This document shows positions 619-52,652 of a stretch of 64,000 nucleotides of DNA, in pieces; position 1 is the first letter of the stretch; the number at the start of each line of letters is the position of its first letter. Below the pieces are notes generated by a model that saw only the letters and a list, made by a program, of their open reading frames with translations, had not been told where the DNA came from and ran no database searches. Position numbers and translations under genes: made by a program. The stretch is from a virus (lineage: Duplodnaviria; Heunggongvirae; Uroviricota; Caudoviricetes), in IMG/VR virus record IMGVR_UViG_3300032046_000009, one strand, 5' to 3'.

Positions 619-658
619 ACGTCCTTAATACCTATATGTCAGCGTCCCTTATAAACCT

Positions 659-1694: not shown

Positions 1695-1699
1695 TTGGT

Positions 1700-2624: not shown

Positions 2625-2640
2625 AAAAAGAAGGGAAAGT
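2625..2640 (-). terminator. oligo-T terminator (TCCCTTCTTTTTTT on minus strand)
   Basis: A7 run on plus strand immediately 3 prime of the minus gene end; same AAAAAAAGAGGGA-like element recurs at 195-210, 1021-1030, 3540-3555, 6975-6985. Confidence 0.45.
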
Positions 2641-2663
2641 TGCACCGTCTATATCACGGTGGT

Positions 2664-3490: not shown

Positions 3491-3564
3491 GTTCGCACGT
3501 CCTTCAATACTATAATGTCAGCGTCCTATATAAACCTTCGCATTAAAAAAAGAAGGGAATTGTT

Positions 3565-3858: not shown

Positions 3859-3894
3859 CTTTCCACGTCCTTAATAGTGTAATAGCACCGTGAC

Positions 3895-4416
3895 TTATAA
3901 ACCTTCGCTTTTTTTGGTAAACTTAGCGAATTTTGAGATAACGCTCTGCTGTAGCTCTAGCTGTGCATCTATTGTACATGTCCCGATAAACTCACAATAG
4001 ACCCACTCGTTTATCGTTTCTTGTATCAATTCCAACACTAGAGGGTCTGGATTATTATCAAGCAATTCATTTATTGCTGTTTTCCAAGCATAAACCTCTT
4101 GTTTCAGCAAAAATTCTCTATCGTATGACAGGCAAAATTCGGCAATATCCATATTAGGGTAAAGCGTTTGATATACGATAATATGTCCTATTTCGTGATT
4201 CAGAATTAACGCTTTTACCTTATCAGGTATTGAACCATAACCATTAATATAATTAGTTGAATAGTTCTTAGTTCCAATAATGATTTTTCGCTCAGGGTAA
4301 AATGAAGCCTTCGAATGATTCCAGCTTAGGATATAACTGTACTCGATACGGAAACCTAGTTTTTGCGCTAAGTTTTCAAGTCGTGTCAATTCATCCTTAT
4401 CGTTCAAATGTTCCAC
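3895..4416 (-). CDS. putative small zinc metallopeptidase-like protein (HEIGH = HExxH motif)
   Basis: track ORF 173 aa; LNHEIGHIIVY zincin-type motif; promoter elements 4440-4495. Confidence 0.45.
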   Translation of the reverse strand: MEHLNDKDELTRLENLAQKLGFRIEYSYILSWNHSKASFYPERKIIIGTKNYSTNYINGYGSIPDKVKALILNHEIGHIIVYQTLYPNMDIAEFCLSYDREFLLKQEVYAWKTAINELLDNNPDPLVLELIQETINEWVYCEFIGTCTIDAQLELQQSVISKFAKFTKKSEGL

Positions 4417-4499
4417 GTCCTTAAAGATGATATAACACCGTCCTTAATAAAGAGTTCTATGGTTTTTCTTGTAATAGGTATATAAACCTTTCGCTCTGT

Positions 4500-4760
4500 T
4501 CGAACCTGTCCGTGCCAGCGATACCCAAAAGGACTGTATATCAAACCCGTTTGTCAAAAACAAGCCCTGAGCATGTCGTTCGGACGAATACGCTCAATTC
4601 CCTTTATATTTGCTCAACGATATTGAGCGAGCAAGCCCCGTTTAGTCGAATAAGGCTAAATCGTGGAGTTCGGGTCTATGTTAGGCATGGTCAATTCAAC
4701 ATCAGTCCTATGGTAACTATGGTTCGATGACGTTCGTTTAGCTAAATCAGCCTTAGAGCT
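4500..4760 (-). ncRNA. candidate small structured RNA region (GC-rich, ORF-less)
   Basis: GC-rich; flanked by several TATA-like elements (4478-4495, 4858-4885); only a weak plus ORF. Confidence 0.2.
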
Positions 4761-5439
4761 AGTCATCGCGGCGAGTTCGAATCTATAAGATGCCTCTATT
4801 AACTGATTCCGCCTCAAATCGGGGTCCGATGATGTGTAGCTAAAGTGTATCTGTGTTCTACAACTAAAAGCAAACGTTTATATAGGACGCTGAGAACGTA
4901 GTATTTGGCGGCGGCGGTTCGCGTTAAGCGTATATTACATAGTTACGCATCTTATGAATTCAGTTGCACTAAAAGTTCAACTTTGGGTTGCCTCTCTCCC
5001 GTGTCTTGCGTCAAGCTACTAGCAGATACGCACAGCCCTATATAAACCTTCCTATTAAAGTGTAGAACAGAGATACAATAGGAACCTTTATATACCTCGC
5101 TATCCTCTTCTCAGCGCGCCTCAAATCGTGCTTCGTTTGGCTAATCCGCCTCGATTCAGCCCTAATTGAACATGGTTGTTCTAGGCAAACATTTATAAGC
5201 AACCATGCCTTTTATATGGTATGTATCGAAAGACGTGATTAAACCCAGAGTTGTACTTTATGGTTCGAATTTTGCTAAGTTTGCACATATATAAGCAACC
5301 GATAGGTTTAAATAGCTACTATATAAGGCTATCGGCGATACGCTTAAATAGGGGGTATATAAACGTTTTGGTCTAGCACAACTTCTAGTGTAACAAAAAG
5401 TGCAACTTTTGGGGTAACGCCTCGGCTAACAGGAAATTG

Positions 5440-5680
5440 TCCGTAGAATGCAACTGAGAATGTCACATAAGCGCACATAGGCGTTTTTTTGATTCCAATT
5501 ATTTTCTGGTCAGAGCTTCCACGCCGTCCGTTTTACCTGTCGGTTTGCCCTGCTTAATCACCTGATTAAAAGTTCTCCACAGTTCCGCGAGCCTTTCGGA
5601 TAATAAAGTCACCGTTTGCCAAAACGTCTTTTTTTCAGGGCTATTTTGGCATTCAGGGGAGCTAGAGGGGGGGGACTTGT
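5440..5680. repeat. composite intergenic module copy 1 (GTCACATAAGCGCACATAGGCGTTTTTTT ... palindrome ... AACGTCTTTTTTTCAGGG..GCTAGAGGGGGGGGACT)
   Basis: shares about 45-nt 5 prime block, internal TTAATCA palindrome and 3 prime G-rich block with copies at 19745-20035 and 40840-41070. Confidence 0.6.
5554..5569. promoter_or_regulatory. palindromic site TTAATCACCTGATTAA
   Basis: 16-bp perfect palindrome family TTAATCA-NN-TGATTAA. Confidence 0.6.
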
Positions 5681-5699
5681 TTATAATGGGGTATTAATC

Positions 5700-6260
5700 A
5701 GTTGTTTAAAATAGAGCTATAGCACTATGTCAGTCAGCACGTTGTCGTATGCCAACTATTCACTCCATAGACCCTTTACGTATGACAACCCTTTTCTTTA
5801 CGTATGTAAAGGTCATCAGTATCTTTTATCGAGCATTTCTTTTATCCATGTACTCCACTTTTTAGCTATTCTGGGGGTCTAGTACCACTTTTAGGGGTCT
5901 TTTGAGGGGTATAGGGAGTCATCTAGGGGGTTAGTGATTAGAGGTCGTTAGGGGTTCGTGGTTAAGGGGGTCGGACGGGGGTTCTCTGGGGTTCGGGAAT
6001 TTACTTAACAATTTCTGTTAATGGTTAGGGGGGTCGGGGTAAAGGGTGCATGTGGCATGAGAGAGCCTGTTACGAGCTACGATTCGTTAATCAGTTGATT
6101 AAAAGTTCGGGTTTGCCTGTGTCGCCTTGCTACGGGCTTGGCAGAACTTGGGTCAGTCTGGGTTGACTAGGTGAAATCAAAAAGTGTTAAGGATTCTTAA
6201 CAAAAATTGTCTAAGTTTGCAGAGGGTAAAAGAGGGGGTTTCGAGAGAGGTTAGAAGGAA
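5700..6260. repeat. G-tract-rich non-coding block (irregularly spaced TAGGGG(G)T / GGGGTC units, more than 15 G4-5 runs)
   Basis: read directly; no ORF; contains palindrome at 6087-6102. Confidence 0.6.
6087..6102. promoter_or_regulatory. palindromic site TTAATCAGTTGATTAA
   Basis: TTAATCA-NN-TGATTAA family. Confidence 0.6.
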
Positions 6261-6389
6261 TGAGTAGAACGGGCGAAGGGAAAGCGCGAGAAAGGACGGT
6301 GAAAAAATGGAACAATATCCCTTCGCCCTTGATAGAGTAGTATGTCAAACGGGTATATAAAGGTTGTGGTAGAAAGACCATGCTCGAAT

Positions 6390-6617
6390 CTAGTGTTCGA
6401 CTTTATAGATTCCATAGAGCAGTACCAATATTCCAACAGGGACACCCAAAAATAGAAGCGGTGAAAATAGCGCACCAAAAGTAGCAGAAAAAGCGAAAAT
6501 GAAAATTCCACCCAGAATTGCCCCTATACTTTGGGTTAGAGGGTCACGTATGACTTCGATGGTTCTTGTGTAGAGCCACTTAAAGAATCCTATTTTTTGC
6601 TTGACCATCTTGTTCAC
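6390..6617 (-). CDS. small membrane protein (75 aa, 2 predicted TM helices)
   Basis: track ORF; hydrophobic stretches; promoter box 6641-6675. Confidence 0.5.
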   Translation of the reverse strand: MNKMVKQKIGFFKWLYTRTIEVIRDPLTQSIGAILGGIFIFAFSATFGALFSPLLFLGVPVGILVLLYGIYKVEH

Positions 6618-6671
6618 TTGATAATAACAACAACACCGAGCTATATAAAGGTTTCCTAAGAACGTCCATGC

Positions 6672-6809
6672 TCAAAATTCAATGTGAACTTTGAGTATTC
6701 CAGAAAGTATTAGAGCTATTACAACTACGAAAAAGGCTATCGGGGCAAATGCCATGATTATGCCAGCGTTCTCTTTTACTTTCTTAATCACGGTTTTTAG
6801 TGTTATCAT
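6672..6809 (-). CDS. small membrane protein (about 45 aa, 1 TM) with approx 105-nt structured 5 prime leader
   Basis: hand-translated; leader 6810-6915 has hairpins GGAAAC-AA-GGTTTCC and CGTCC...GGACG; promoter box 6941-6980. Confidence 0.3.
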   Translation of the reverse strand: MITLKTVIKKVKENAGIIMAFAPIAFFVVVIALILSGILKVHIEF

Positions 6810-7165
6810 TTTAGACCACTTAGATTAGCGCGGAACACGGACGATTCTCCAATAAGCGTCCATCACTCGTCAGCTAAGGACGTAGTTTGGAAACCTTGTT
6901 TCCGTGCTCATACGAGTAATACAATAATCAAACAACTATATAAAGATTGTGGTAGAAACATCATACTCAAAAAAAGAGAGTTTTAGAGAAATTGTTTATT
7001 CTCTGTCCGTATCTGAATGTCAATGTCCGTAACGAGTATTTCAATGCTGTCTATGTTTTGTTGTTTCTTGCGTCTTTTAGTCTTTACGGCATCTTTTAAG
7101 AGCTTTATGACGTATCGAGCTTGTTTCGGGGTTATTTTGACCTTAAACTCTTTGTCTATCATGGC

Positions 7166-7513
7166 TTAAGCGTCCTTCAAGTAAAGCGTATATCCGACTG
7201 AGAACCATCCCGTTTGGCAGAAGCCAATAATAACGGTTTCTCCGCGCGTTTCGCACTCTTTTATCTTGTCTTTCAGCAATTCGGTCATTGCTTTCGGGTC
7301 TGTTCCAGATTCACCCATAGTTGCTATCCATCCAGAATGAAGGTGTTCATTTTGAAGCCCTGTGCCTGAACGGGTCGTAATTTTGTCGTCATTTCCTAGT
7401 TCAATAGCGTGGTAGCCCCGTTTCTTTGCCAGCGCGTCTAATCTGTCATAGTCTTGGAAAACATTGCAATGGACGGGTGGGAATTTGTCTTTTGATGTTA
7501 GGAAGTTCTTCAT
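7166..7513 (-). CDS. hypothetical protein (115 aa)
   Basis: track ORF, operon with 7525..7914. Confidence 0.5.
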   Translation of the reverse strand: MKNFLTSKDKFPPVHCNVFQDYDRLDALAKKRGYHAIELGNDDKITTRSGTGLQNEHLHSGWIATMGESGTDPKAMTELLKDKIKECETRGETVIIGFCQTGWFSVGYTLYLKDA

Positions 7514-7524
7514 TGCTCAGTCAC

Positions 7525-7914
7525 CTATTGATGTCCGTCTTGAATATTCTGGAAAACTTCAATGAATCCGTGCATGTGAACGGCACACGCGAATAACTCA
7601 TAGATTCCATAGTATGACGCAAAGTTGTCATAACCAACACCCGAATCTACGAAGATTCTGGGTCGCTTTTGGACATTGCCCTTCTCTGTGAGTCCCGCTA
7701 GAACAACGACACGTTTTTCTGGGTTCTTTAGAAGATATTTTTCTAATTGTTCTCTTGCCTCTTTGCCGAAGTTGTCCTCAATGTTCGCTAGGTTCAAGTA
7801 TGTCAGCTTAGAGTATCGTTCAGATGGTTGTGCTGGATATTGGTTTTCGAGCCATGACTCTGAGGGTTTAACGTTCTTCGATGTCAGCTTTTCCTTTAAC
7901 TCTTGTAACTTCAT
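7525..7914 (-). CDS. hypothetical protein (129 aa)
   Basis: track ORF; promoter box 7948-7984. Confidence 0.5.
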   Translation of the reverse strand: MKLQELKEKLTSKNVKPSESWLENQYPAQPSERYSKLTYLNLANIEDNFGKEAREQLEKYLLKNPEKRVVVLAGLTEKGNVQKRPRIFVDSGVGYDNFASYYGIYELFACAVHMHGFIEVFQNIQDGHQ

Positions 7915-8149
7915 AGTTTCAACCTTTGAAGAGTAGTGTTCGCCGTCCTATATAAAGGTTCGCTAAGAACGAACGTGCTCAAAATTTTAGGGGGGTCTTG
8001 GCTAGTGCGTTTCGCCGTGACCCTAGTTTTATTTAATGTAGAGGTTGAAATTTGCCCTATGTCGTATCGCACCGCATAAGGATTTTTCAACGTGCGGAAT
8101 AGACATATACACACCGAAGTATATAAACTTTCGCTAAGAACAACCATAC

Positions 8150-8533
8150 TCAGAGAGGAATAACACCTAGCCATTTATAAACTTCGGTGTTAATTTCAGC
8201 CATACCCGAACCCGTCCATACGTTGTGAGGAATAGAAGTATGAAGAGACTCTGGAATGAAAATAACGTGTGATTTATCGATGTGGTGTCCTTCTGAACCG
8301 TTAAAAGGTGCGTTTAGAATAATAGAGCCTAATTCTCGGCGTTTAGCTTGAATCCTAGCTTGCGTTTTCTTGTGATAAATTCGATGTTCTCTCTCATATT
8401 TTCTCTCATAGTTTGGGTTTTCTAATCTCCATTTCCTCTTATATAACTTTACCTCTTTCTTATGTTTCAAACGCCAATTCTTGTAATATGTAATACGTTT
8501 TTCTCTTGAATCTGTGAGCGTCATTTGATTCAC
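8150..8533 (-). CDS. HNH-like nuclease-motif protein (127 aa), paralog of 9378..9704
   Basis: basic N-terminus; shared C-terminal block GxxxHHID...IPxxLHxSIxHxVWTGxGMAEIN with the paralog; promoter box 8119-8152. Confidence 0.4.
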   Translation of the reverse strand: MNQMTLTDSREKRITYYKNWRLKHKKEVKLYKRKWRLENPNYERKYEREHRIYHKKTQARIQAKRRELGSIILNAPFNGSEGHHIDKSHVIFIPESLHTSIPHNVWTGSGMAEINTEVYKWLGVIPL

Positions 8534-8579
8534 ATTAAACTAAATGTTAAACGTGCTTATAAAGGTTTCGGTAAAAGTT

Positions 8580-8830
8580 AGTTGGAACACGGGGGAGAGT
8601 GTGCCCCCGTGTTCTCGGACGTGGTTTGTGGTTTTTTGTCAGTTGAAGCACAAGTTGGTGGAATGCCCCGTGTACGGGACAAACCTTCGGTCTTGTGCGG
8701 TTCCGTTCTTTGTCGCTTATTTCGAACGTAACCCTAGCGACTATGAAGGGTCGGCAAGTTTGTGAGCGTATAGCTCTTTGGTCTTGCGCGCCCTTTGTTT
8801 AGACGCAAGCGCGTCATGTATTATTGAGAT
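8580..8830 (-). ncRNA. candidate structured RNA (GC-rich, ORF-less, minus promoter at 8840-8870)
   Basis: perfect hairpin GAACACGGGGG-N8-CCCCCGTGTTC at 8588-8618; palindromic GACGCAAGCGCGTC; no credible ORF. Confidence 0.25.
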
Positions 8831-8870
8831 GTCAAACGACTATATAAACTTTTCGGGAGAAAGACCATGT

Positions 8871-9266
8871 TTATTGTCTGGGTTTGTTTGCCCTTTCTCT
8901 AAAATCGTCTGTTTCTTGTTGTGTGAAAACTTTATCAATAGCTGGAAGTCTATCGCTCTTTACATAACCATGTAAAAGGTTTCTCTCTTCTACATATTCA
9001 TTATCGCTTTCAGCGTTCAAGTTGTGAGAAATAGCTGATAAACTTTCGTATGGAAGAATTCGGTTTAATACTTCATAAATTGCAACTTCATTGAATTCGT
9101 GAACGAACAACTCAGCACCAATATCATCAGCGATTATACTGTCAATGGAATAGATAACTTTGGTAATTTTAGTATCATATCTTGAAATAGTCCCAGAAGC
9201 CAAAGCTGTTCCATCGAGTTCAGCGTTATCGAAGTAAATTTTCTCCGTGTTCATCGCGTTCACCAA
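8871..9266 (-). CDS. hypothetical acidic protein (about 127 aa from ATG 9254)
   Basis: track ORF; promoter box 9291-9331 flanked by two palindromic sites. Confidence 0.5.
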   Translation of the reverse strand: MVNAMNTEKIYFDNAELDGTALASGTISRYDTKITKVIYSIDSIIADDIGAELFVHEFNEVAIYEVLNRILPYESLSAISHNLNAESDNEYVEERNLLHGYVKSDRLPAIDKVFTQQETDDFRERANKPRQ

Positions 9267-9286
9267 TTAATCAACTGATTAATCAG
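9267..9286. promoter_or_regulatory. palindromic site TTAATCAACTGATTAA(TCAG), between TATA and start of 8871..9266
   Basis: operator-like position downstream of TATA. Confidence 0.6.
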
Positions 9287-9331: not shown

Positions 9332-9347
9332 TTAATCAACTGATTAA
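9332..9347. promoter_or_regulatory. palindromic site TTAATCAACTGATTAA, upstream of the promoter box
   Basis: TTAATCA-NN-TGATTAA family. Confidence 0.6.
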
Positions 9348-11994: not shown

Positions 11995-12188
11995 GTAAAG
12001 TTCACCTTTTCCTTTGCGTCTGGGTATCTTTGCGCTTTGCATTCTTTATGTTTATAGTTAAGAAAAGGCAATAAGCATAGAGGTTTATAGGGGTTCTTTC
12101 TGTGAACCTTATGAGGACATTCTGCCTCATCAATGCAAATAGGGACATCGTGATTTTTCAGAAGAGCCTTTAAGTTTAAATCCGTCAC
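11991..12188 (-). CDS. VxFT-tail family (KEKVNFT), first gene after a approx 150-nt leader
   Basis: track ORF; leader 12190-12345 contains the palindrome near the TSS. Confidence 0.55.
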   Translation of the reverse strand: MTDLNLKALLKNHDVPICIDEAECPHKVHRKNPYKPLCLLPFLNYKHKECKAQRYPDAKEKVNFT

Positions 12189-12352
12189 GCTTTCAACCCC
12201 TCTCTAAACTTGCCATGTGCGAACGGTTGACCGTGATGTGAGCCTGTCGGCAGACTTGAATAGAAACGTCTAAGTTTTCGGACGTTCAACGGCAGACCCC
12301 CGTGACTTTGCGTTTTGCGAGTTTGCGCTTTATCCTATGAAGTTTTCCCGTA

Positions 12353-12368
12353 TTAATCACCTGATTAA
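12353..12368. promoter_or_regulatory. palindromic site TTAATCACCTGATTAA at the predicted TSS of the 11991..12188 transcript
   Basis: lies about 25 nt downstream of the TATA of promoter box 12372-12415. Confidence 0.55.
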
Positions 12369-12386
12369 CTAGAACAACACCGTGAC

Positions 12387-19200: not shown

Positions 19201-19406
19201 TAATTTCGAACATATATAAACGATATTGAACGAGTGTCCTTCTTTTGTTCGAAGAGGCTCAAATAATGCTTTTCGACCAATGGAAACGATGTTAAAAAGA
19301 CCATCAGTCCTATGGAATCTGGGTTTCGTTCGGGTTCGTTTTGGAAAATCAGTCTTGGAAAACGGCAACGCGCAGACTTCGAATGTAAAGGCTTCGAGTT
19401 TTGAAA

Positions 19407-19422
19407 TTAATCATTTGATTAA
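19407..19422. promoter_or_regulatory. palindromic site TTAATCATTTGATTAA
   Basis: TTAATCA-NN-TGATTAA family. Confidence 0.55.
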
Positions 19423-19472
19423 ATAAGCTCAACAGTTCGCATCGTGCCTCGGCGTGAAGGGGCGTGAAGCAG

Positions 19473-19488
19473 TTAATCACCTGATTAA
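19473..19488. promoter_or_regulatory. palindromic site TTAATCACCTGATTAA
   Basis: TTAATCA-NN-TGATTAA family. Confidence 0.6.
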
Positions 19489-19744
19489 TTAAATGCGCCT
19501 CGCACCGCGTCCCGTTTGGCAAAAGCGACCATTGTGAAAGCTGTGCTGGAAATTGAGCATGGCGTTTTTAGGGAAAGATTTATAAGCTACCGTGTTGTAG
19601 TATTCACAAAGAGGCACAAATATGTTTCCGTTTGATACTCTGGGTTTCATAATAGGTTTAATTGTTCTTGCAAAAGTAGTTAAAACTTTCAGGCGACCCG
19701 TTGGTTGTCCCGACCCGTCAGAACTTGAGGAAGCACTAGAGGAC

Positions 19745-20035
19745 GAAGGCTAGGTCACACTTTCGGTGTAACTTTCCGTCCCCTCGAAAATTAAATTTTT
19801 AGTAGAATCCTGAGTGTCACATAACGCACATAGGCGTTTTTTCTTCCCAATTAGATTTCGGTTTATGGTGAAGCCCTCTGCCAGCCCCCAACGTATTCCC
19901 CAGACTTTTAATCAACTGATTAAAAAAGCACCGACTTCAGGCTTCAGTTCCCATTGGCTTCGCCCTAGCATCCAGAACGTCTTTTTCCCTAGTCTATTTA
20001 CCTGTCAAATGTAGCTAGGGGTAGGGGACTAATCG
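19745..20035. repeat. composite intergenic module copy 2
   Basis: GTCACATAACGCACATAGGCGTTTTTT ... TTAATCAACTGATTAA (19908-19923) ... AACGTCTTTTTCCC..GCTAGGGGTAGGGGACTA. Confidence 0.6.
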
Positions 20036-40193: not shown

Positions 40194-40325
40194 TAATCGG
40201 TCACTACCTAGAGATATAGCTTTCCCCTATATAAAGGTTTAGTAAGAACTCCCATGCTCAAAACCCTATGAGTATCGCTGGTTTGCATGGACTTCTCCAT
40301 GCCGAAGGTCATAAAAGGAACTATT

Positions 40326-40341
40326 TTAATCAGTTGATTAA
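40326..40341. promoter_or_regulatory. palindromic site TTAATCAGTTGATTAA
   Basis: TTAATCA-NN-TGATTAA family. Confidence 0.6.
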
Positions 40342-40469
40342 ACATTCGGTTTCCATGACCAGCAGGGTTGGGAGCTTTTTTGGCACTTCGAAAAATTTCG
40401 AAAGCCATTCTCTCCATACAAACATCCCCAACCAGCAAAAAAGTGATGGTCATTTGCGAGACCTGTAAA

Positions 40470-40640
40470 AATTATCTGCCTCGAAATTTGCTCGTTTTCG
40501 GAAATTCGACTCAGTTCGAAACTCACCCTATGGGAAATTTTCTCGGTGGGAAAGGGCGGGAGCCAAATCGCCCCGAAATTTGCTCGTATTGCCGAGTTCG
40601 ATTCAGTTCGGGGGTCAGATGGCTTTTTTCCACCCCCTCG
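40470..40640. repeat. two imperfect approx 90-bp tandem repeats (CGAAATTTGCTCGT(T/A)TT..GTTCGA..)
   Basis: read directly. Confidence 0.5.
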
Positions 40641-40658
40641 GCTCCATGCCCCAAACTT

Positions 40659-40674
40659 TTAATCAGTTGATTAA
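40659..40674. promoter_or_regulatory. palindromic site TTAATCAGTTGATTAA
   Basis: TTAATCA-NN-TGATTAA family. Confidence 0.6.
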
Positions 40675-40839
40675 TAACTACCGAAAGGTTTATATGGTGC
40701 AACTCGTATTATATAAGGAAGAGTTGAACTTTCAATGACACAGAAAGTTACACTAACCGTAACCTCGAAAGTGACCCAGACGGAAACACGGAAAAGGGTA
40801 ACGCAGAAAAACCTTTAGGAAAAAACCATCGGTCACACT

Positions 40840-41070
40840 TTTTGAAACCACATACCCACACATAGGCGGCGCGCAGGCGAAAATTTGATTTTGGTCGGCG
40901 AACTTTGTGATTTCTGTTATGATTGTTATTTTGGTATTATTTTTATTTCCTATTTCCTGAGCATTTCGATTTAGATTTACTAAGGATTCGAGAAAAGAAA
41001 ATAACTGAAAACGTCTTTTTTTCAGGGAGTTTTGAACGTCTAGGGGAGCTAGGGGTAGGGGACTATCCCA
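40840..41070. repeat. composite intergenic module copy 3 (partial 5 prime block CACATAGGCG; full 3 prime block AACGTCTTTTTTTCAGGG..GCTAGGGGTAGGGGACTA)
   Basis: read directly. Confidence 0.55.
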
Positions 41071-41088
41071 GAGAAAGTTGGTATATGC

Positions 41089-41277
41089 TCAGAAGGAAGC
41101 GGGTGGCGGGGAAGCTGTTGTAATAAAGTCTGGGCACTTGCCATTCTCCTTTATTGCCTGAACGATAAGGTCGTTTACTGGAATACGCTTGCAGTATTCT
41201 TCCCTTAAACATTCCTTACATTTTGCACGTTCCTTTATCTCTTCAAATGGTATCTTATTCACCACCCTTATTGCCAT
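41089..41277 (-). CDS. small Cys-rich protein (62 aa)
   Basis: track ORF. Confidence 0.45.
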   Translation of the reverse strand: MAIRVVNKIPFEEIKERAKCKECLREEYCKRIPVNDLIVQAIKENGKCPDFITTASPPPASF

Positions 41278-41552
41278 ATTTCCCTTAATATTTCGTGGTA
41301 GTACAATCCAAGACTCTCTAAGTATTTGTCATATTGTTTAGGTCTTGTTTTTGTCATATTTGTAATTATCCAATGAAGAAACTCGTGATTAAGAACGCAA
41401 CACATATCTTCTACATTAAGCCACTTTTCTTGGTCAGTAATCTCCACTTTAGCCGAACCTTTTTTAACCCAAATTTTTGCTCGTCTATGATTTTTAGGCG
41501 TACTTTTTCGCACCTTAATAATGAGGTTTTCAAGATTTATTTCTTCGGTCAA
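41268..41552 (-). CDS. minimal HExxH (HEFLH) zincin-like protein, TTG start translationally coupled to the last array-7 member
   Basis: track ORF 41268..41576 trimmed; VLNHEFLHWI motif. Confidence 0.5.
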   Translation of the reverse strand: MTEEINLENLIIKVRKSTPKNHRRAKIWVKKGSAKVEITDQEKWLNVEDMCCVLNHEFLHWIITNMTKTRPKQYDKYLESLGLYYHEILREIWQ

Positions 41553-41788
41553 GTGAATTGTACCTTCTCTATCCATTCAGCCAAAAACTTGGCGTAAATT
41601 TTTTCCCATAATTCAGACCATTTAGGAGTTCTCGCTACATCATGAAGTTTGGAAAGAAATGGTTGTATAAAATTACCCCATTCTGTACTACATTCTCTGC
41701 AAAGAAAATGTTCAAATTTGCCTAAAACCAATTCAGATTCTTTTCCACAACGGTCACATTTTCTACCTTTAAGCCAATTAGCTCTCAT
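41549..41788 (-). CDS. VxFT-tail family (IEKVQFT)
   Basis: track ORF. Confidence 0.6.
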   Translation of the reverse strand: MRANWLKGRKCDRCGKESELVLGKFEHFLCRECSTEWGNFIQPFLSKLHDVARTPKWSELWEKIYAKFLAEWIEKVQFT

Positions 41789-43658: not shown

Positions 43659-43882
43659 GTAAATTGCACTACCTCTCGTTCTAATTCTGGATGACTTTCT
43701 GGTTTAGCTATTATCTGTCCGCAATTGTGACATTGAACAACTTTGTTATAAGAATTCCATTTTATTGCTCCATTATATCCACAACCGAAACAAATATTAG
43801 AATGTATAGACCTATGTTCTCGCGTAGTCAAACGAACCAAACCACAATCTTTATCATAATGCAAAACTTTGAGTTGTTTCAT
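43655..43882 (-). CDS. VxFT-tail family (REVVQFT)
   Basis: track ORF. Confidence 0.6.
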   Translation of the reverse strand: MKQLKVLHYDKDCGLVRLTTREHRSIHSNICFGCGYNGAIKWNSYNKVVQCHNCGQIIAKPESHPELEREVVQFT

Positions 43883-44061
43883 GTGAATTGAACCTTCTCC
43901 CGTTCATTCATAATTGACACATAAACCGTACAATGTTCTCTTATTCTGCAAGATTTTATGCAATATTCTTTGTTAAGCGAATTATGTACTGTGCATCCCG
44001 AAATACTCCATTTAACGTTCAGTTTAGAAGGATGCGTTAAAAGAACTGGTTCAGCACTCAT
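43879..44061 (-). CDS. VxFT-tail family (REKVQFT)
   Basis: track ORF. Confidence 0.6.
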   Translation of the reverse strand: MSAEPVLLTHPSKLNVKWSISGCTVHNSLNKEYCIKSCRIREHCTVYVSIMNEREKVQFT

Positions 44062-44823: not shown

Positions 44824-44987
44824 GTGAACTGTACCTTCTTCTCTCCTTCTATATATTTTTTCCGTGCTATTTTTGCACAAGCAACAGAACAAAAGCCCTT
44901 TTGACTTGAAAGAGTGCCGTTGTATATGTATTCTTTGTGGCATATTGAGCAAGTTCTAGGACCATTACCATGTCTATGTCGTTTCAA
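44820..44987 (-). CDS. VxFT-tail family (55 aa, KKVQFT), TTG start
   Basis: hand-translated (L)KRHRHGNGPRTCSICHKEY... Confidence 0.45.
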   Translation of the reverse strand: MKRHRHGNGPRTCSICHKEYIYNGTLSSQKGFCSVACAKIARKKYIEGEKKVQFT

Positions 44988-45085
44988 GTGAATTGCACCT
45001 TCTCTTTCTGATATTCTTTAGCAAGTCGTTTAAACCAGCGAAGTCGTCTAAAGATGAGAGGATAGTCTATATCTTTTCTGTTCAT
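44984..45085 (-). CDS. VxFT-tail family mini member (33 aa, KEKVQFT), no Cys
   Basis: hand-translated. Confidence 0.4.
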   Translation of the reverse strand: MNRKDIDYPLIFRRLRWFKRLAKEYQKEKVQFT

Positions 45086-46024: not shown

Positions 46025-46453
46025 GTGAAAAATATGTCAGAAAGAAAAGAAAAAAACCACAAATATTTTTTAACCCATAAACCATACTTTAGAGATTATA
46101 TGAGAAATTGGTCGAGAAAAAACAAAAACAAAGTAAGTGACTATCACTTTCATAAAAAGTTAATAGCACTTGCCCATTATGGTGGAGAGCCACCAAAATG
46201 TGTTTGTTGCGGTGAAACAGAACCAAGATTTCTTACTATAGACCACATTAATGGTGATGGAGATAAACACAGAAGAGCTATTTCTAATAATCGCAGTTTT
46301 TCTGGTGGACCATTTTACGGTTGGTTAATCAAAAATAATTTCCCAGAAGGATACCAAGTAATGTGTTCTAATTGTAATATGGCTAAAGGGAAAACGAAAG
46401 TTAAGTTTTGTCCAGTTCATCATCCAGAACTATACCAACCGCAACATTTATAA
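46025..46453 (+). CDS. HNH endonuclease
   Basis: CVCCGE...TIDHINGDGDKHR...N...CSNCN arrangement; 142 aa; rare plus-strand gene. Confidence 0.65.
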   Translation: MKNMSERKEKNHKYFLTHKPYFRDYMRNWSRKNKNKVSDYHFHKKLIALAHYGGEPPKCVCCGETEPRFLTIDHINGDGDKHRRAISNNRSFSGGPFYGWLIKNNFPEGYQVMCSNCNMAKGKTKVKFCPVHHPELYQPQHL

Positions 46454-46548
46454 GTCGGTTTTGACTTATGGTGCGGAGCAGAGCCACGGAGTCAAGATTT
46501 CTATAACGCCTCTTCATCCTCGCCGCGATTCTAAAATTTTAAACAGTT

Positions 46549-46564
46549 GATTAAAAGAATTCAC
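46549..46564. promoter_or_regulatory. degenerate palindromic site TTAAACAGTTGATTAA
   Basis: one mismatch to the family consensus. Confidence 0.4.
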
Positions 46565-46602
46565 GTATAATGCCTATTTACGCCTTTCGCAATACTTATA
46601 TA

Positions 46603-47040
46603 CTAGAAGATTTCTATAGTTGTACTATTCTTCTTTTTCGTAACAAATTCGACTGTAAATCGCCATTTTTTTGTGTTAGTATCATAGCAATAAAGTGATT
46701 TGTGAATATTGTCGAGAGACATCTTAGCCTCATGTCCCACAACTTGGTCTAACACTTGATGAAGAACTTCATGCCCAATAATTTCTTCAGCGCATTTCTC
46801 ATAATCGCTACATTCTGGTCGAGCAAAAATTTTTATCTGAATCCACCCAGTATATCCACCCGCAATACAATTATCAAAATACATATTGACTTCGGATTTG
46901 TTGCAGATTCCTACATAAACTCCTATAGGATTCTCTTTTGTTACAGCGGCTTTGATTTTAAGATAATAGTCATAAAAGGCGGGCAAAGACACTCGTATCA
47001 AATCAAATGGAAACCGTGCTTTTTTCTTTAAGCCAGCCAT
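46603..47040 (-). CDS. hypothetical protein (145 aa)
   Basis: track ORF; TATA TTTAAAGG at 47075-47090. Confidence 0.5.
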   Translation of the reverse strand: MAGLKKKARFPFDLIRVSLPAFYDYYLKIKAAVTKENPIGVYVGICNKSEVNMYFDNCIAGGYTGWIQIKIFARPECSDYEKCAEEIIGHEVLHQVLDQVVGHEAKMSLDNIHKSLYCYDTNTKKWRFTVEFVTKKKNSTTIEIF

Positions 47041-47089
47041 ATTTACCTATAGAAAGAGAAGAAAAACGGGTATTTAAAGGTTATGGAAA

Positions 47090-47400
47090 TAGAATGTGGG
47101 GACGGGTAAAGTACACCCGACCCCATAGCTATCACGGCGAGCCGTTGCCAATCCGTATATCATAGTGTACGTTTCGCTCCCACCGTGGGTCTTCGGTCAT
47201 GACACGGTTTTGTCAGGGTTTCGCCACCCCCAATGCATTGCTGGCGGGTTCACCCAACTCCTATAGGTCTTGTTCGTTGTCCGACCAATCATGTTGTCGC
47301 CAATCGTGTACCCGAAAGGTCCTAACATGGGGCATGTCCATCTATGTAAGTTGTGAACAATTACCCGTGTCTAAGAGATACTGTATTAAAAGAAGTATAT
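47090..47400 (-). ncRNA. candidate structured RNA (GC-rich, about 55% GC, ORF-less; minus promoter TATATAAACTT at 47396-47410)
   Basis: strong GC enrichment versus the surrounding AT-rich DNA; several short helices such as CCCACCGTGGG; only a weak plus ORF. Confidence 0.3.
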
Positions 47401-47572
47401 AAACTTTACGGTTAGTCGAATTGTACCTTTACTGGTCGGTTCCAAAAATCTGAAAGATAATTCTCAGCGTAAATATCAGACCATATTCGTCCACAATGGG
47501 GGCACTTATTTATACACATTATTGGGTCATGAATAGGAACAGAACCACAATATGGACATCTATTACAATCAC

Positions 47573-48328
47573 TCATGGTTCACGCCGTTTTTCCTTGCCT
47601 CGCTCTTTATATTTTCCACCCTTGCGAATTGACTTGCGCTTTGACATTCGAATAGCATCCTCTTTTGCTTCCAGTTCTTCCTCTTCTTCCCAGCATTCAT
47701 CACTTCGAGAACGTATTACAGGAACAAATGGTTTAGCCTCTTCTGTCTTTAATGCGTCTAATCCCTTTTTTATTTCCTTTTTTTCTCTAGGAGAAACACC
47801 TTCTCGCGGAGAACTTAGATAGTCAGCTAATTCTTGGTTATATGTTACTGGAAATGTTGGTTTCTTGAATCTTTCGGGATTTATCGGACACTTCTCTTCG
47901 CCACACCATTTGAGATGATTTGGGTTGCCCATCTGGTGATTCTTATAGCAAACTGGGTTACATTCTTTGCAAGCCAACTCGCTACCAAACCACGCAAGAT
48001 GACAATGAATAGATTTGGTTTCAAGTTTTTCATAAGTTTTAGCCAAGTTTTCCACACTAGCTCCTTCCCATATTTTTATTTCATGATACAACGATATTGC
48101 TTTTTCCCACGGAATATCTCTTGCTTCAAATTCTCTAATCATTTTGAGTTCCTTTAAGGTAACTACAGAAACGTGACCGTAACACATTTCAAGTGTAGCA
48201 TTTCGTTGTTGAGCATGACATATTGGACAGTCCAATACTCCGCCTAAACCTATAGGCATCCAATTATCTGGATATTCTTCACTTACCCAACCGCAAATAC
48301 ATATCATATATTTTGCCATATTAGTCAT
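47573..48328 (-). CDS. Cys-rich protein (251 aa) with basic C-terminal tail
   Basis: track ORF; multiple CxxC and CxxxH motifs. Confidence 0.55.
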   Translation of the reverse strand: MTNMAKYMICICGWVSEEYPDNWMPIGLGGVLDCPICHAQQRNATLEMCYGHVSVVTLKELKMIREFEARDIPWEKAISLYHEIKIWEGASVENLAKTYEKLETKSIHCHLAWFGSELACKECNPVCYKNHQMGNPNHLKWCGEEKCPINPERFKKPTFPVTYNQELADYLSSPREGVSPREKKEIKKGLDALKTEEAKPFVPVIRSRSDECWEEEEELEAKEDAIRMSKRKSIRKGGKYKERGKEKRREP

Positions 48329-51556: not shown

Positions 51557-52234
51557 TCATGGTTCTTCCTTCTTTTCTTCCTTGAATTCTAAAGATTTCT
51601 GTAGTTCCTTTTTGTATCCCTCTAAGCCCAACTTCTTTATTTTGTCTTCTATGAATGCGGTAACTTCATTCTTTGCTTCGACTACAGTTTCATCCATCTG
51701 TTCTGAGAATTGTCTTTTTATAAAAGGAACATTATTTTCTATCTGCATCTTTAACTGGTCGAGTTGCTTTTGAATTTCTTCCCTATCATGTTTTCCTATG
51801 CTCGGCTTCGCTAGTATCCCAGCAATCTTGGTGTAAAATTGGTTAGTAGTCGATGCGACTTCCTTCATCTTATCTTCGAATTCGGTATCGAACTGCACAC
51901 GTTTACTTTCAAATTGTGCCTCTTTTACTTCATGTCCATCCATGTAACGTATTGTGCATGGGGTTCCTTCACCCTGATTCAAAGATGTTATAGCATCTGC
52001 AAACTGTGACGGCGAAAGATAAACGGATACTATCGGTACGCCGTGGTCCGACATAATCCAATCTTTGTAAAGGTCCCTCATAAGAATAGCTTTGCTAATA
52101 TCTACTCTGATGAATGTTCTCTGCTGGATACTGCTTCCAAACAAATTCATTTTCTCTGAGCAAACGCCCCTAGAGATATTTATTACACCAAAACTTGGGT
52201 GTCTTATTTCTTTTCTTTTCTCTTCATCAGGCAT
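51557..52234 (-). CDS. hypothetical protein (225 aa), C-terminal coiled coil
   Basis: track ORF. Confidence 0.55.
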   Translation of the reverse strand: MPDEEKRKEIRHPSFGVINISRGVCSEKMNLFGSSIQQRTFIRVDISKAILMRDLYKDWIMSDHGVPIVSVYLSPSQFADAITSLNQGEGTPCTIRYMDGHEVKEAQFESKRVQFDTEFEDKMKEVASTTNQFYTKIAGILAKPSIGKHDREEIQKQLDQLKMQIENNVPFIKRQFSEQMDETVVEAKNEVTAFIEDKIKKLGLEGYKKELQKSLEFKEEKKEEP

Positions 52235-52652
52235 ATTTTTTTGGCTTCCTTTTATGTAGTTTCTCTCGTAAATCTTTTAAATCAAATTGTGACGGTTTGG
52301 AAACACAGAGAGAACCAATATCGCTTACTTCTTCTGAAAAACCAAATCGCCGCATTATTCGATAAATTAATGCATGTTCCAACTCGTGGCTAATTACATC
52401 ATCAACGGTTTTCAATTGGAACAAACGTTTCAAATACATTTTGTTCAACCTAATAAGGTTGTAATAAGGTGAATATTCCCCACTAATACGACTATCGAGA
52501 TTAGAAGCCCTCAAAAATACATCGTTAAAATCCACGGCATATTCTTCTCTATATTTCTTGAAGCAACATACGCACAATTCACATTTATCTATCTGTGTAT
52601 CGGGGTTATATTTTTCTTTAAGACTCTTTTTAGCTTTTTTAAGCCAGTTCAT
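52227..52652 (-). CDS. minimal HExxH (HELEH) zincin-like protein (SprT/WLM-like size)
   Basis: ISHELEHALIYRIM; 141 aa. Confidence 0.45.
   Translation of the reverse strand: MNWLKKAKKSLKEKYNPDTQIDKCELCVCCFKKYREEYAVDFNDVFLRASNLDSRISGEYSPYYNLIRLNKMYLKRLFQLKTVDDVISHELEHALIYRIMRRFGFSEEVSDIGSLCVSKPSQFDLKDLREKLHKRKPKKYA

What the first reader, a model, noticed from the sequence alone, without database searches (positions are those of the whole stretch)
47090..47400. 300-bp GC-rich island between two genes with its own promoter (candidate ncRNA next to an HNH endonuclease)
The island has the highest GC in the window, no credible ORF and a minus-oriented TATATAAACTT at 47396-47410. The only plus-strand HNH endonuclease gene (46025..46453) lies just upstream. 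Structured RNAs such as RNase P RNA, SRP RNA and intron-containing RNAs are often flanked by homing-endonuclease-type genes.
Basis: partly seen in the sequence, partly recalled or inferred. Interest (0 to 1): 0.55.

Follow-up and report, generated by a model that had tools for sequence, protein, structure and literature searches.

The report
New structured RNA gene in archaeal-type virus
The GC-rich gap is a real, separately transcribed gene for a folded non-coding RNA of about 290 bases that matches no known RNA family; it sits in an uncharacterised virus-like element with archaeal-style promoters, and what it does is not known.

Summary
Window 47041-47411 is a GC-rich, ORF-free gap between two minus-strand genes, with a TATA box on the minus strand.

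It is a stand-alone ncRNA gene on the minus strand, about 47374 to 47085. It has a BRE/TATA-type promoter and ends in a GC hairpin followed by CUAUUU.

Homologues occur in seven sequence classes from related metagenomic contigs. Each has the same promoter spacing, and within groups the RNA is more conserved than the neighbouring protein gene.

A six-helix fold (P1, P2, P3/P3', P4, P6, plus P5 in one group) has covariation support. In a hand-curated alignment, 93.8% of cells pair, against 24-52% when the partners are slid. Changes on both sides occur in 20 of 37 pairs. G-U pairs outnumber A-C pairs, which fixes the RNA strand.

Rfam 15 gives no match, so it is not RNase P RNA, SRP RNA, an intron or HEARO.

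The nearby HNH gene is a mobile presence/absence polymorphism, not a partner. In one relative, however, an HNH gene sits inside the RNA gene.

The RNA gene is cleanly deleted in a 99%-identical genome, so it is an accessory gene.

One loop changes between palindromes (CUAUAG, CCAUGG, UGCGCA). In OLE and GOLLD RNAs this signature marks a symmetric kissing loop, so self-association is possible but unproven. Function is unknown.

The parts
47396..47411 (-). Promoter of the RNA gene: TATA box TTTATATA (47403-47396) preceded by the BRE-like CCGTAAAG (47411-47404)
   Evidence: Sequence read. The motif AACCG(T/C)AA-N2-TTTAWATA is kept in all seven homologue classes, with 23-27 nt between the TATA box and helix P1. 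It belongs to a family of 33 minus-strand TTTAWATA boxes in the window.
47085..47376 (-). Transcribed region of the ncRNA, about 290 nt. The 5' end is inferred at about 47374 +/- 3, some 30 nt from the start of the TATA box. The 3' end is inferred in the U-rich run after P7.
   Evidence: nhmmer and covariance-model homology to L010, L011, L252, L255, L259 and L263 spans this stretch. The transcript ends are inferred, not measured.
47365..47370 (-). P1 5' strand, ACACGG. It pairs with 47202-47207.
   Evidence: Covariation: ACACGG/CCGUGU becomes GCGCGA/UCGCGC in L263 (three pairs changed on both sides) and AUGCGG/CCGUGU in L252 (two G-U wobbles). L255 extends the helix as UUUACACGG/CCGUGUAAA.
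47335..47359 (-). P2 hairpin: UGUUCA, a 13-nt loop, UGGACA
   Evidence: Four of six pairs change on both sides across classes: UGUUCA/UGGACA, UCCCUA/UGGGGA, UGCCUA/UAGGCA, CAUCCA/UGGAUG, CACCC/GGGUG.
47282..47334 (-). P3 (UGCCC/GGUCG) and P3' (CAUGU/ACAUG), enclosing the P4 hairpin region whose loop carries GURCAC (GUACAC here)
   Evidence: P3': three of four counted pairs change on both sides, and the innermost pair is U-A, U-G, A-U or G-C. P3 varies only by wobble changes and has a C-U mismatch in group A. The P4 stem differs in each class while the GURCAC loop is kept.
47268..47281 (-). Conserved single-stranded junction, GACAACGAACAAGA (family consensus GGACGACCAACAAGA)
   Evidence: It is among the best-conserved unpaired stretches; three classes share GGACGACCAACAAGAC exactly. 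No complementary site elsewhere in the window at up to 3 mismatches. The HNH insertion in L266 has its breakpoint here.
47260..47267 (-). Palindromic element CCUAUAGG between invariant AAGA and AGUU. It is a possible DIS-like loop: stem GAC/GUU presenting the 6-nt palindrome CUAUAG.
   Evidence: It stays palindromic in three different versions: CCUAUAGG (window, L010), CCCAUGGG (L011) and CUGCGCAG (L252, L255, L259, L263). All three variable pairs change on both sides. The central pairs cannot form within one chain.
47212..47255 (-). P5 hairpin, present only in group A (window, L010, L011). The apical loop contains AUGCAU.
   Evidence: Absent from group B, where 6 nt stand in its place. Between the window and L011 the outer and inner stems covary: GGGU/ACCC becomes GAAC/GUUU, and CAA/UUG becomes GCGA/UCGC.
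47202..47207 (-). P1 3' strand, CCGUGU, preceded by invariant AAAA
   Evidence: See P1.
47133..47187 (-). P6 long hairpin: CACGGUGGGA-G-CG, a 30-nt loop, CG-GCUCGCCGUG
   Evidence: Seven of twelve pairs change on both sides between group A and group B (CACGGUGGG/CUCGCCGUG against ACAGGGCA/UGCCCUGU). Wobble changes occur within groups. The alignment of both strands is ungapped when anchored on GACC and CG.
47085..47124 (-). P7 terminal hairpin GGGGUCGGGU-GUACUUU-ACCCGUCCCC (47124-47098), then ACAUUCUAUUUCC. This is the presumed termination signal.
   Evidence: Every class has a GC-rich hairpin of different sequence, followed by a CUAUUU-like run (CUACUUU, CAAUUUU or CUUUCUU in three classes). 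The next gene's TATA box (TTTAAATA, 47078-47071) follows at once. The bacterial intrinsic-terminator scan finds nothing here.

Best explanation
The island is a stand-alone gene for a highly structured, trans-acting non-coding RNA of about 290 nt. It is encoded on the minus strand of an uncharacterised virus-like element that uses archaeal-type (BRE/TATA) promoters.

Shown here:
- The gene has its own conserved promoter, placed 23-27 nt before the first helix.
- It ends in a GC hairpin followed by a U-rich run, and the next gene has a separate promoter.
- The RNA folds into a 5' domain closed by the long-range helix P1. That domain contains hairpin P2, the compound helix P3/P3'/P4, an invariant single-stranded junction (GGACGACCAACAAGA), a small palindromic element and, in one group, hairpin P5. 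A long 3' hairpin (P6) follows.
- It belongs to no Rfam family.
- It is an accessory gene, cleanly absent from a 99%-identical genome.

Inferred:
- It acts as a folded RNA particle rather than as an antisense or cis-regulatory RNA. The invariant junction strand would be the partner-binding site.
- The element that switches between palindromes (CUAUAG, CCAUGG, UGCGCA) would be a symmetric kissing loop that makes the RNA self-associate. On this reading it works like the phage-borne 'ornate' RNAs (GOLLD, ROOL, OLE), whose cellular roles are also unknown.

My probabilities: real structured ncRNA gene, about 0.85. Self-association through the palindromic loop, about 0.3. Any specific cellular role cannot be assigned from sequence.
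For: Homology:
- Near-identical copies occur in 8 contigs. Within the RNA they differ only by a 2-nt insertion in loop L6; a further SNP lies in the spacer between the TATA box and the RNA start.
- nhmmer hits: L010 6e-68 and L011 7e-34; L252 2e-14 and L259 1e-6 with a profile built from group A only; L263 5e-28.
- A covariance model built from group B only finds L011 at 2e-9 and the window RNA at 5e-5, and nothing else in the window.

Conservation: RNA core against the adjacent HExxH gene, nucleotide identity 0.87 v 0.66 (window-L010), 0.69 v 0.54 (window-L011), 0.80 v 0.68 (L252-L255) and 0.73 v 0.60 (L252-L263).

Structure:
- RNAalifold finds 11 of 68 pairs (group A) and 10 of 67 pairs (group B) with compensatory changes.
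- On the curated helix alignment, 93.8% of cells pair, against 23.6-52.2% when partners are slid by 1-3 columns. Twenty of 37 pairs change on both sides. None of 500 shuffles reaches the observed value on four of the five measures.
- Single-sequence MFE folds of L011, L252 and L255 recover P1, P2 and P6, and a form of P3, on their own.

Strand: 16 G-U cells against 8 A-C cells, six of which lie at the frayed base of P6.

Independent transcription unit:
- Promoter family.
- The RNA gene keeps its promoter and hairpin when it lies 1.4-1.5 kb from the HExxH gene in L010 and L011.
- No sigma-70 or intrinsic-terminator match at the ends of the RNA.

Not a known family.

Palindrome switching. The precedent for reading it as an intermolecular kissing loop is PMC12286853, section 'Biological relevance of homo-multimers'.
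Against: - There are no expression data. The transcript ends are inferred from promoter geometry and a hairpin.
- Only seven sequence classes fall into two main clades, so many 'both-side' changes may trace to one A/B split. The helix alignment was curated by hand with the structure in mind, which favours it.
- Single-sequence folding energy of the window RNA is not unusual (z -0.87 minus strand, +0.09 plus strand).
- Palindromes of 8 nt or more are not enriched overall in five of the seven RNAs (P 0.03-0.68). The self-association idea rests on one covarying site plus two conserved self-complementary loops.
- The alternative hairpin AGACU/AGUUU predicted for group B competes with part of the palindrome.
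- The gene is missing from several relatives (L007-L009, L262), deleted in L257 and interrupted in L266. It is therefore dispensable at least in the short term.
- The archaeal host is inferred from promoter architecture only.
Confidence: 0.8

Rival explanations
1. A cis-regulatory leader (riboswitch-like 5' UTR or attenuator) of the downstream HExxH gene 46603-47040.
For: The RNA gene lies directly upstream of the HExxH gene, on the same strand, in the window, L252, L255, L259 and L263. The tail after P7 is a weak terminator by bacterial rules, so read-through is conceivable.
Against: A separate TATA box (TTTAAATA, 47078-47071) with normal spacing to the ATG lies between P7 and the gene. In L010 and L011 the RNA gene, with its promoter and hairpin, is 1.4-1.5 kb away with other genes in between. 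The HExxH gene exists without the RNA in L007-L009, L257 and L262.
Confidence: 0.05
2. A DNA-level element (replication origin, packaging or integration site). A variant is an RNA that primes replication, in the manner of ColE1 RNA II.
For: It is a GC-rich island in an AT-rich genome and carries several palindromes. It is ORF-free.
Against: Helices tolerate G-U but hardly A-C, which is strand-specific and points to RNA. The promoter and terminal hairpin travel with the element to other positions. There are no iterons or direct repeats, and cumulative GC skew shows no turn here. No tRNA fragment is present. A priming RNA is not excluded by sequence alone.
Confidence: 0.07
3. A selfish mobile RNA gene, or the remnant or target of an intron/homing-endonuclease element. 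On this view its high identity between viruses reflects recent transfer rather than function.
For: Distribution is patchy. There is a clean 308-nt presence/absence difference between genomes 99.4-99.9% identical on both flanks. The gene sits at different positions in L010 and L011. It is more similar between viruses than the flanking genes are. An HNH ORF homologous to the window's lies inside the RNA gene in L266, with the breakpoint in the most conserved segment. HNH genes come and go in these genomes.
Against: Compensatory changes in four helices show selection on the fold over long divergence. No group I, group II or other intron model matches. There are no flanking repeats or target duplication at the L255/L257 boundary beyond a 3-nt AAC. 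L257 retains the 3' half of the terminator hairpin, which points to deletion rather than insertion. Mobility and function are not mutually exclusive.
Confidence: 0.1
4. A catalytic RNA (self-cleaving or other ribozyme) rather than a binding or scaffold RNA.
For: A multi-helix junction with invariant unpaired nucleotides (GUAAU, GGACGACCAACAAGA, AAAA, GACC) is typical of ribozyme cores. The element also encodes an RNA ligase (Pfam PF09414).
Against: No match to any Rfam ribozyme family, even at E up to 10. No hammerhead-like core is conserved: the linker that resembles CUGA...GAA in L010 is not kept in group B. No cleavage-site logic is evident.
Confidence: 0.1
5. A degraded or frameshifted protein-coding gene.
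For: A 67-aa ORF on the plus strand (47199-47402) and a 43-aa ORF on the minus strand exist.
Against: Open frames differ in strand and frame among homologues. Indels are 1-2 nt. Substitutions are paired across helices rather than 3-periodic.
Confidence: 0.01

Closest known systems
GOLLD, ROOL and OLE 'ornate' large RNAs (Rfam families; cryo-EM structures in PMC12286853)
   Same: All are virus- or prophage-borne (GOLLD, ROOL), independently transcribed, multi-helix RNAs of unknown function. They are accessory rather than universal. A loop whose inner nucleotides switch between palindromes is the signature used for the symmetric kissing loops OLE B3 and GOLLD B8. The same pattern is seen here at 47260-47267.
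   Different: There is no sequence or structure match to their covariance models. This RNA is much smaller, about 290 nt, against 'many members exceeding 800 nucleotides' for GOLLD. Its host element has archaeal-type rather than bacterial promoters. It is not next to tRNA islands, and the window has no tRNA. Oligomerisation is untested.
HIV-1 dimerisation initiation site (DIS) hairpin (from my own knowledge)
   Same: A short stem presents a 6-nt self-complementary sequence flanked by unpaired purines. Here the stem would be GAC/GUU with loop C-UAUA-G-GA, C-CAUG-G-GA or U-GCGC-A-GA. The P4 loop of group B is GUGCAC, one of the two common DIS palindromes.
   Different: The biology is unrelated, so the resemblance is mechanistic only. 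The stem here is invariant, so its existence has no covariation support.
phi29 pRNA (packaging RNA)
   Same: A virus-encoded, separately transcribed structured RNA that works as an oligomer formed by loop-loop pairing.
   Different: pRNA uses two different complementary loops, not a palindrome. It is about 120-174 nt with a different fold. No Rfam match was found. No packaging genes were recognised next to the RNA here.
   Same: A structured RNA of about 200-300 nt found near an HNH-domain gene.
   Different: HEARO RNA lies directly upstream of a large IscB gene with RuvC and HNH domains. Here the HNH protein is 142 aa, on the opposite strand, separated by another gene, and absent from near-identical relatives. 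No Rfam match was found.
   Same: Similar size range, GC-rich in an AT-rich genome, and a multi-helix fold closed by a long-range helix.
   Different: No covariance-model match at E up to 10 in the window or in four homologous loci. The conserved cores I recall for RNase P RNA (GGAAAGUCC) and the SRP RNA are not in the sequence. The RNA is intergenic and interrupts no gene.

Membership tests
Any Rfam 15 family (including RNase P RNA, SRP RNA, group I and II introns, HEARO, GOLLD, ROOL, OLE, raiA, known ribozymes) | Score at or above the family's gathering threshold against its covariance model | tested here: not met
   No match at gathering thresholds over the whole window. At E up to 10, the only two weak matches in 46400-47700 lie outside the RNA. 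At E up to 10, none falls on the RNA in L263, L011, L010 or L266.
tRNA / tmRNA | Cloverleaf or tmRNA detected by ARAGORN | tested here: not met
   No genes found in the window.
Stand-alone structured ncRNA gene (generic class) | Own promoter and terminator, conserved with the element | tested here: met
   A BRE/TATA motif lies 23-27 nt before P1 in all seven classes. A GC hairpin plus a U-rich run sits at the 3' end. The next gene has its own TATA box. Transcription itself was not measured.
Stand-alone structured ncRNA gene (generic class) | Secondary structure supported by compensatory substitutions | tested here: met
   Twenty of 37 pairs change on both sides. 93.8% of cells pair, against 24-52% when slid. 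None of 500 shuffles reaches the observed value on four of the five measures. RNAalifold supports the fold within each group. Caveat: seven sequences and a hand-curated alignment.
Stand-alone structured ncRNA gene (generic class) | No conserved reading frame | tested here: met
   Open frames differ by strand and frame among the classes. Indels are 1-2 nt.
Homo-oligomeric 'ornate' RNAs (OLE, ROOL, GOLLD type) | Symmetric intermolecular kissing loop, shown by palindrome-to-palindrome covariation at adjacent nucleotides | tested here: inconclusive
   CCUAUAGG, CCCAUGGG and CUGCGCAG occupy one aligned site. Only three versions exist. Overall palindrome density is not enriched in most of the RNAs. 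The criterion comes from PMC12286853.
Homo-oligomeric 'ornate' RNAs (OLE, ROOL, GOLLD type) | Formation of a defined multimer in solution or by cryo-EM | not testable with these tools
   This needs an in-vitro transcript and biophysics.
HNH-associated guide RNA (HEARO / omega-RNA) | Constant adjacency to, and co-orientation with, a large IscB-type HNH/RuvC gene | tested here: not met
   The HNH ORF is 142 aa, on the opposite strand and 630 nt away. It is replaced by another gene in relatives that are 96-97% identical over the aligned DNA and keep the RNA.
Cis-regulatory leader of the HExxH gene | Constant position in the 5' UTR of the regulated gene, with no promoter in between | tested here: not met
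   The gene's own TATA box lies between P7 and the ATG. The RNA is 1.4-1.5 kb away in L010 and L011.

The most novel reading that the evidence does not exclude
This is the founding member of a new class of virus-encoded, self-assembling structured RNAs in archaeal-type viruses. On this reading it is a particle of about 290 nt that dimerises, or forms higher oligomers, through a DIS-like palindromic loop (47260-47267) and possibly a second self-complementary loop (GURCAC in P4). It would be analogous to, but unrelated in sequence to, the bacterial phage RNAs GOLLD and ROOL. I know of no published ornate RNA multimers from archaeal mobile elements.
Probability: 0.25. Interest if true: 0.8.

Novelty: new variant of a known kind. 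Interest (0 to 1): 0.62.

Why it matters
My two literature searches found no covariation-supported structured RNA described from an archaeal virus or plasmid, and large structured RNAs of unknown function are rare finds in general. This one has a compact fold of about 290 nt, a clear transcription unit and natural knock-outs: a clean deletion in L257 and an HNH interruption in L266. It also carries a candidate symmetric kissing loop, which makes it a tractable target for in-vitro folding, oligomerisation and cryo-EM work. It comes from a virus-like lineage absent from IMG/VR, from GenBank phage records and from the GTDB genomes as far as my scans could tell. If it self-assembles, RNA-only quaternary structures would extend beyond bacterial phages. 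If it does not, it is still a new RNA family for Rfam and a marker for an unexplored group of mobile elements.

Tried and rejected
- Known families: Rfam at gathering thresholds and at E up to 10, on the window and on four homologous loci, gave nothing at the RNA. ARAGORN found nothing.
- Single-sequence folding: z-scores for the island are not significant on either strand. The structural evidence had to come from comparison.
- Close relatives are too similar to be informative. L001-L006, L216 and L246 are 96-100% identical.
- IMG/VR: protein-based searches with both flanking genes and with an alignment of the HExxH family found nothing. Two specific RNA patterns also found nothing. A 14-mer gave only chance hits.
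- JGI metagenome scan with CCCACGGNGNGAGCGAAAC: 119 stretches, of which only two (L216, L246) carry the RNA. The rest are chance; L223, for example, is an unrelated GC-rich stretch with a chance match.
- GTDB genomes scan with the conserved junction pattern: two chance matches in bacterial contigs, so no cellular homologue was found.
- GenBank phages: no DNA match to the region and no protein match for the 314-aa ATPase or the 575-aa protein.
- Paralogues in the window: none by nhmmer or by the covariance model.
- Antisense target for the conserved junction in the window: none.
- General palindrome enrichment as a test of self-association: not significant for most homologues.
- The neighbouring HExxH protein has no Pfam family above its curated cut-off. 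The AlphaFold model has mean pLDDT 63, and the best Foldseek PDB hit has E 0.5, so it gave no functional lead for the RNA.
- I looked by eye for tertiary pairings among L2, L6, the junction and the P4 loop and found none that covaries.
- C/D box, H/ACA, K-turn, hammerhead and group II domain-V resemblances were considered. They were dropped because the motifs are not conserved across the two groups.
Full report
**1. The observation**

The stretch 47041-47411 lies between two minus-strand ORFs. These are 46603-47040 (145 aa, with an HExxH motif) and 47412-47576 (54 aa, zinc-ribbon-like).

It holds the highest 200-nt GC content in the window: 0.545, against a mean of 0.380 and sd of 0.039. It ties for the highest 100-nt value and is second for 300 nt.

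Its longest ORFs are 67 aa and 43 aa.

On the minus strand, 47403-47396 reads TTTATATA and is preceded by CCGTAAAG.

The HNH-like ORF 46025-46453 (+) is real but lies beyond the 145-aa gene. So the description is correct, apart from 'just upstream' and 'highest GC' at the 300-nt scale.

**2. What kind of genome this is**

The window is 100% identical over 6.4 kb to ENA contig ERZ27247683:k141_72449, which is 86 kb long.

It carries about 170 mostly tiny genes, nearly all on the minus strand. Few have Pfam matches. Those found include an RNA ligase, a KaiC-like ATPase, AAA and MoxR-type ATPases, SPFH, glycosyltransferases, a DSP phosphatase, SprT-like proteins and a trypsin-like protease.

Nothing similar is in GenBank phage records or in IMG/VR.

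Thirty-three TTTAWATA boxes lie on the minus strand, against seven on the plus strand. Most have a purine-rich BRE-like stretch upstream (GCGAAAG, GCAAACG, CCGTAAAG), often GGACG just downstream, and an ATG about 35-40 nt away.

Bacterial sigma-70 and intrinsic-terminator scans find nothing at the ends of the RNA.

I infer archaeal-type transcription, and therefore an archaeal virus or plasmid. This is an inference from promoter architecture, not a demonstrated host.

**3. Known families**

Rfam 15 gives no match at gathering scores over the window. At E up to 10 it gives none on the island and none at the RNA position in four homologous loci.

There is no tRNA or tmRNA.

Single-sequence folding energies are unremarkable: z -0.87 on the minus strand and +0.09 on the plus strand.

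**4. Homologues**

*Near-identical copies.* Look-ups of the flanking proteins returned eight near-identical contigs. Within the RNA they differ only by a 2-nt insertion; a single SNP lies in the spacer between the TATA box and the RNA start.

*Group A.* More distant homologues of the 145-aa protein led to contigs where nhmmer finds the island again. L010 shows 87% identity over the RNA (E 6e-68) although the protein is only 56-58% identical. L011/L012 show about 70% identity (E 7e-34).

*Group B.* A divergent, shorter group appears in L252/L253, L255/L256, L259 and L263/L264/L265. E values are 2e-14 and 1e-6 with a profile built from group A only, and 5e-28 with the combined profile.

*Cross-check.* A covariance model built from group B only finds L011 at 2e-9 and the window RNA at 5e-5. 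It finds no other place in the window.

*Conserved signals.* In every class the element keeps the promoter AACCG(T/C)AA-N2-TTTAWATA, 23-27 nt before the first helix. Every class ends in a GC-rich hairpin, followed by a CUAUUU-like run (CUACUUU, CAAUUUU or CUUUCUU in three classes).

*Position.* In L010 and L011 the element sits 1.4-1.5 kb from the HExxH gene, with other genes in between.

*Conservation.* Within groups the RNA is more conserved than the adjacent gene: 0.87 v 0.66, 0.69 v 0.54, 0.80 v 0.68 and 0.73 v 0.60 nucleotide identity.

**5. Structure**

RNAalifold on group A gives 68 pairs, 11 of them with compensatory changes. On group B it gives 67 pairs, 10 with compensatory changes.

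MFE folds of L011, L252 and L255 recover P1, P2 and P6, and a form of P3, independently.

I segmented the seven classes by hand. Each segmentation reproduces its sequence exactly (with the L263 P3b segment reassigned). I tabulated the pairs. I then passed a concatenation of the equal-length helix strands and short linkers through MAFFT, which gave an ungapped alignment (A7), and on to the pair-counting tool.

The result was as follows:

- 93.8% of 259 cells form standard pairs. With the 3' partners slid by 1-3 columns the figure is 23.6-52.2%.
- 20 of 37 pairs change on both sides.
- The covariation score is 0.584, against 0.272 +/- 0.028 in shuffles.
- None of 500 shuffles reaches the observed value on four of the five measures.

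Helix by helix:

- **P1** (47370-47365 with 47207-47202). ACACGG/CCGUGU becomes GCGCGA/UCGCGC in L263 and AUGCGG/CCGUGU in L252 (two wobbles). It is extended as UUUACACGG/CCGUGUAAA in L255.
- **P2** (47359-47335). There are five different complementary stem versions.
- **P3'** (47329-47325 with 47294-47290). CAUG becomes CGUA/UACG, and the innermost pair is U-A, U-G, A-U or G-C.
- **P3.** It shows only wobble changes, with a C-U mismatch in group A. This is the weakest helix.
- **P6** (47187-47133). Seven of twelve pairs change on both sides between the two groups. Both strands align without gaps between conserved anchors.

G-U cells (16) outnumber A-C cells (8, six of them at the frayed base of P6). 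This fixes the minus strand as the RNA strand.

Caveats: there are only seven sequences in two clades, and the alignment was curated with the structure in view.

Between the helices lie invariant unpaired stretches:

- GUAAU
- the junction GGACGACCAACAAGA (47281-47268 in the window)
- AGUU, AAAA and GACC

P4 is a hairpin whose stem differs in every class. Its loop keeps GURCAC.

P5 (47255-47212) exists only in group A.

**6. The palindromic element**

At 47267-47260 the window and L010 read CCUAUAGG, L011 reads CCCAUGGG, and group B reads CUGCGCAG. All three are perfect palindromes at one aligned site between invariant flanks. All three variable pairs change on both sides.

The central nucleotides cannot pair within one chain.

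This is the signature that Kretsch and colleagues used to support the symmetric intermolecular kissing loops of OLE and GOLLD. They describe an internal tetranucleotide switching between palindromes where intrachain pairing is stereochemically precluded (PMC12286853).

A stem GAC/GUU, invariant and so untestable, could present the 6-nt palindrome in an 8-nt loop, as in the HIV-1 DIS (my own knowledge).

Two further loops are self-complementary: GUGCAC or GUAC in P4, and AUGCAU in P5.

Against this reading:

- Palindromes of 8 nt or more are not enriched overall in most homologues.
- There are only three versions of the site.
- RNAalifold proposes a competing hairpin in group B.

I rate self-association at about 0.3.

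**7. Relation to the HNH gene and dispensability**

L005 and L006 are 96-97% identical to the window over the aligned DNA. They have a different 125-aa gene where the window has the HNH gene, while the RNA gene is unchanged. HNH genes also appear at other places in relatives, for example next to the RNA ligase in L259. The HNH gene is therefore a mobile passenger, not a partner of the RNA.

In L266, however, an HNH ORF sits inside the RNA gene. It is 34% identical to the window's over the HNH core (E 2e-11). Homology to L252 begins at ...ACAAGACUGCGCAG, inside the most conserved junction, and the HNH ORF reads into the 3' half of the RNA. The contig ends before one can see whether the 5' half lies upstream.

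L257 is 99.4-99.9% identical to L255 on both flanks but lacks 308 nt. The missing stretch runs from the RNA promoter into the terminator hairpin.

L007-L009 and L262 have no RNA gene near the HExxH gene.

The RNA is thus an accessory gene. It is strongly constrained where present and repeatedly lost.

**8. What it most likely is and does**

*Shown.* It is an independent transcription unit encoding a structured RNA of a family absent from Rfam.

*Inferred.* It acts in trans as a folded particle. The invariant junction is the likely contact surface. The palindromic loop may mediate self-association.

*Rivals.*

- Cis-regulatory leader: contradicted by the intervening promoter and by the displaced copies.
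- DNA-level element: contradicted by strand-specific G-U tolerance. An RNA primer role is not excluded.
- Selfish mobile element: compatible with the patchy distribution, but it does not explain the long-term compensatory change.
- Ribozyme: possible, with no positive evidence.
- Coding gene: excluded.

No antisense target for the junction exists in the window. The neighbouring HExxH protein gave no lead: the model has pLDDT 63 and no fold match.

**9. Novelty and verdict**

Its proposed identities and the HNH rationale are not.

The RNA is a new family of a known general kind: a virus-borne structured RNA of unknown function. It occurs in an unexplored, apparently archaeal, mobile-element lineage.

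Interest is moderate to high. It would be high if the self-assembly reading holds.

Noticed in passing
window, 41 sites, e.g. 43879-43896, 44984-45001, 41549-41566 (39 on the minus strand): An 18-nt gene-junction cassette, AAGGTNCAATTYACNTGA, occurs 41 times against 0.16 expected by chance. It combines an SD-like AAGGT, a fixed 9-nt spacer, and an ATG or TTG start overlapping a TGA stop. It makes dozens of unrelated small proteins end in ...KVQFT*. It looks like a conserved translational-coupling or recombination module between genes.
   Followed up: partly
window, 25 sites, e.g. 9267-9282, 9332-9347, 40326-40341, 40659-40674, 46539-46554: A 16-bp palindrome, TTAATCA-NN-TGATTAA, occurs 25 times against 1.1 expected, and several copies lie next to promoters or at gene ends. 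It is probably the operator of a dimeric DNA-binding protein. One copy gave the weak Rfam CRISPR-DR45 hit at 46534-46557.
   Followed up: partly
window 8560-8848, minus strand: A second candidate ncRNA gene. It has a TTTATATA promoter at 8848, about 265 nt of GC-rich sequence with no minus-strand ORF of 40 aa or more, and a terminal hairpin GAACACGGGGGCACACUCUCCCCCGUGUUC. Its folding energy is z = -6.4 against shuffles. No Rfam match. No relatives covering this region were available.
   Followed up: partly
window about 1-9000, 40200-41270, 12043-12386, 19380-19800: Several promoter-bearing stretches have no convincing ORFs. 5480-6250 carries many ACCCC(U)AA-like repeats. 5046 to 4490 (minus strand) starts with ...CAAGACACGGGAGAG, which resembles the 5' end of the RNA studied. 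These may be further non-coding transcripts or replication and terminal elements.
   Followed up: no
window 46025-46453 (+); L005:3407-3784; L259:3314-3889; L266:59-511: HNH endonuclease genes are presence/absence polymorphisms in this virus group. The window's copy is replaced by an unrelated 125-aa gene in relatives that are 96-97% identical over the aligned DNA. L259 has one beside a shortened RNA-ligase gene. L266 has one inside the RNA gene.
   Followed up: partly
L255:9603-9910 compared with L257:1315-1329: A clean 308-nt deletion of the RNA gene, from its promoter into the terminator hairpin, separates two contigs that are 99.4-99.9% identical on both flanks. They come from related sequencing runs (ERR12814450 and ERR12814458). 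This is a natural knock-out.
   Followed up: yes
window 46603-47040 (-) and 52227-52652 (-): There are two small HExxH proteins. The 145-aa one next to the RNA defines a family of at least 22 metagenomic proteins with an invariant HE(V/I)LHQV motif, no Pfam family and no fold match (pLDDT 63). The 141-aa one is weakly SprT-like.
   Followed up: partly
whole window: The element is absent from IMG/VR, from GenBank phage records and from one-genome-per-species GTDB contigs, by the searches tried. It recurs in several JGI, ENA and Logan assemblies on contigs up to 140 kb. It appears to be an undescribed lineage of large virus-like elements with archaeal-type promoters.
   Followed up: partly
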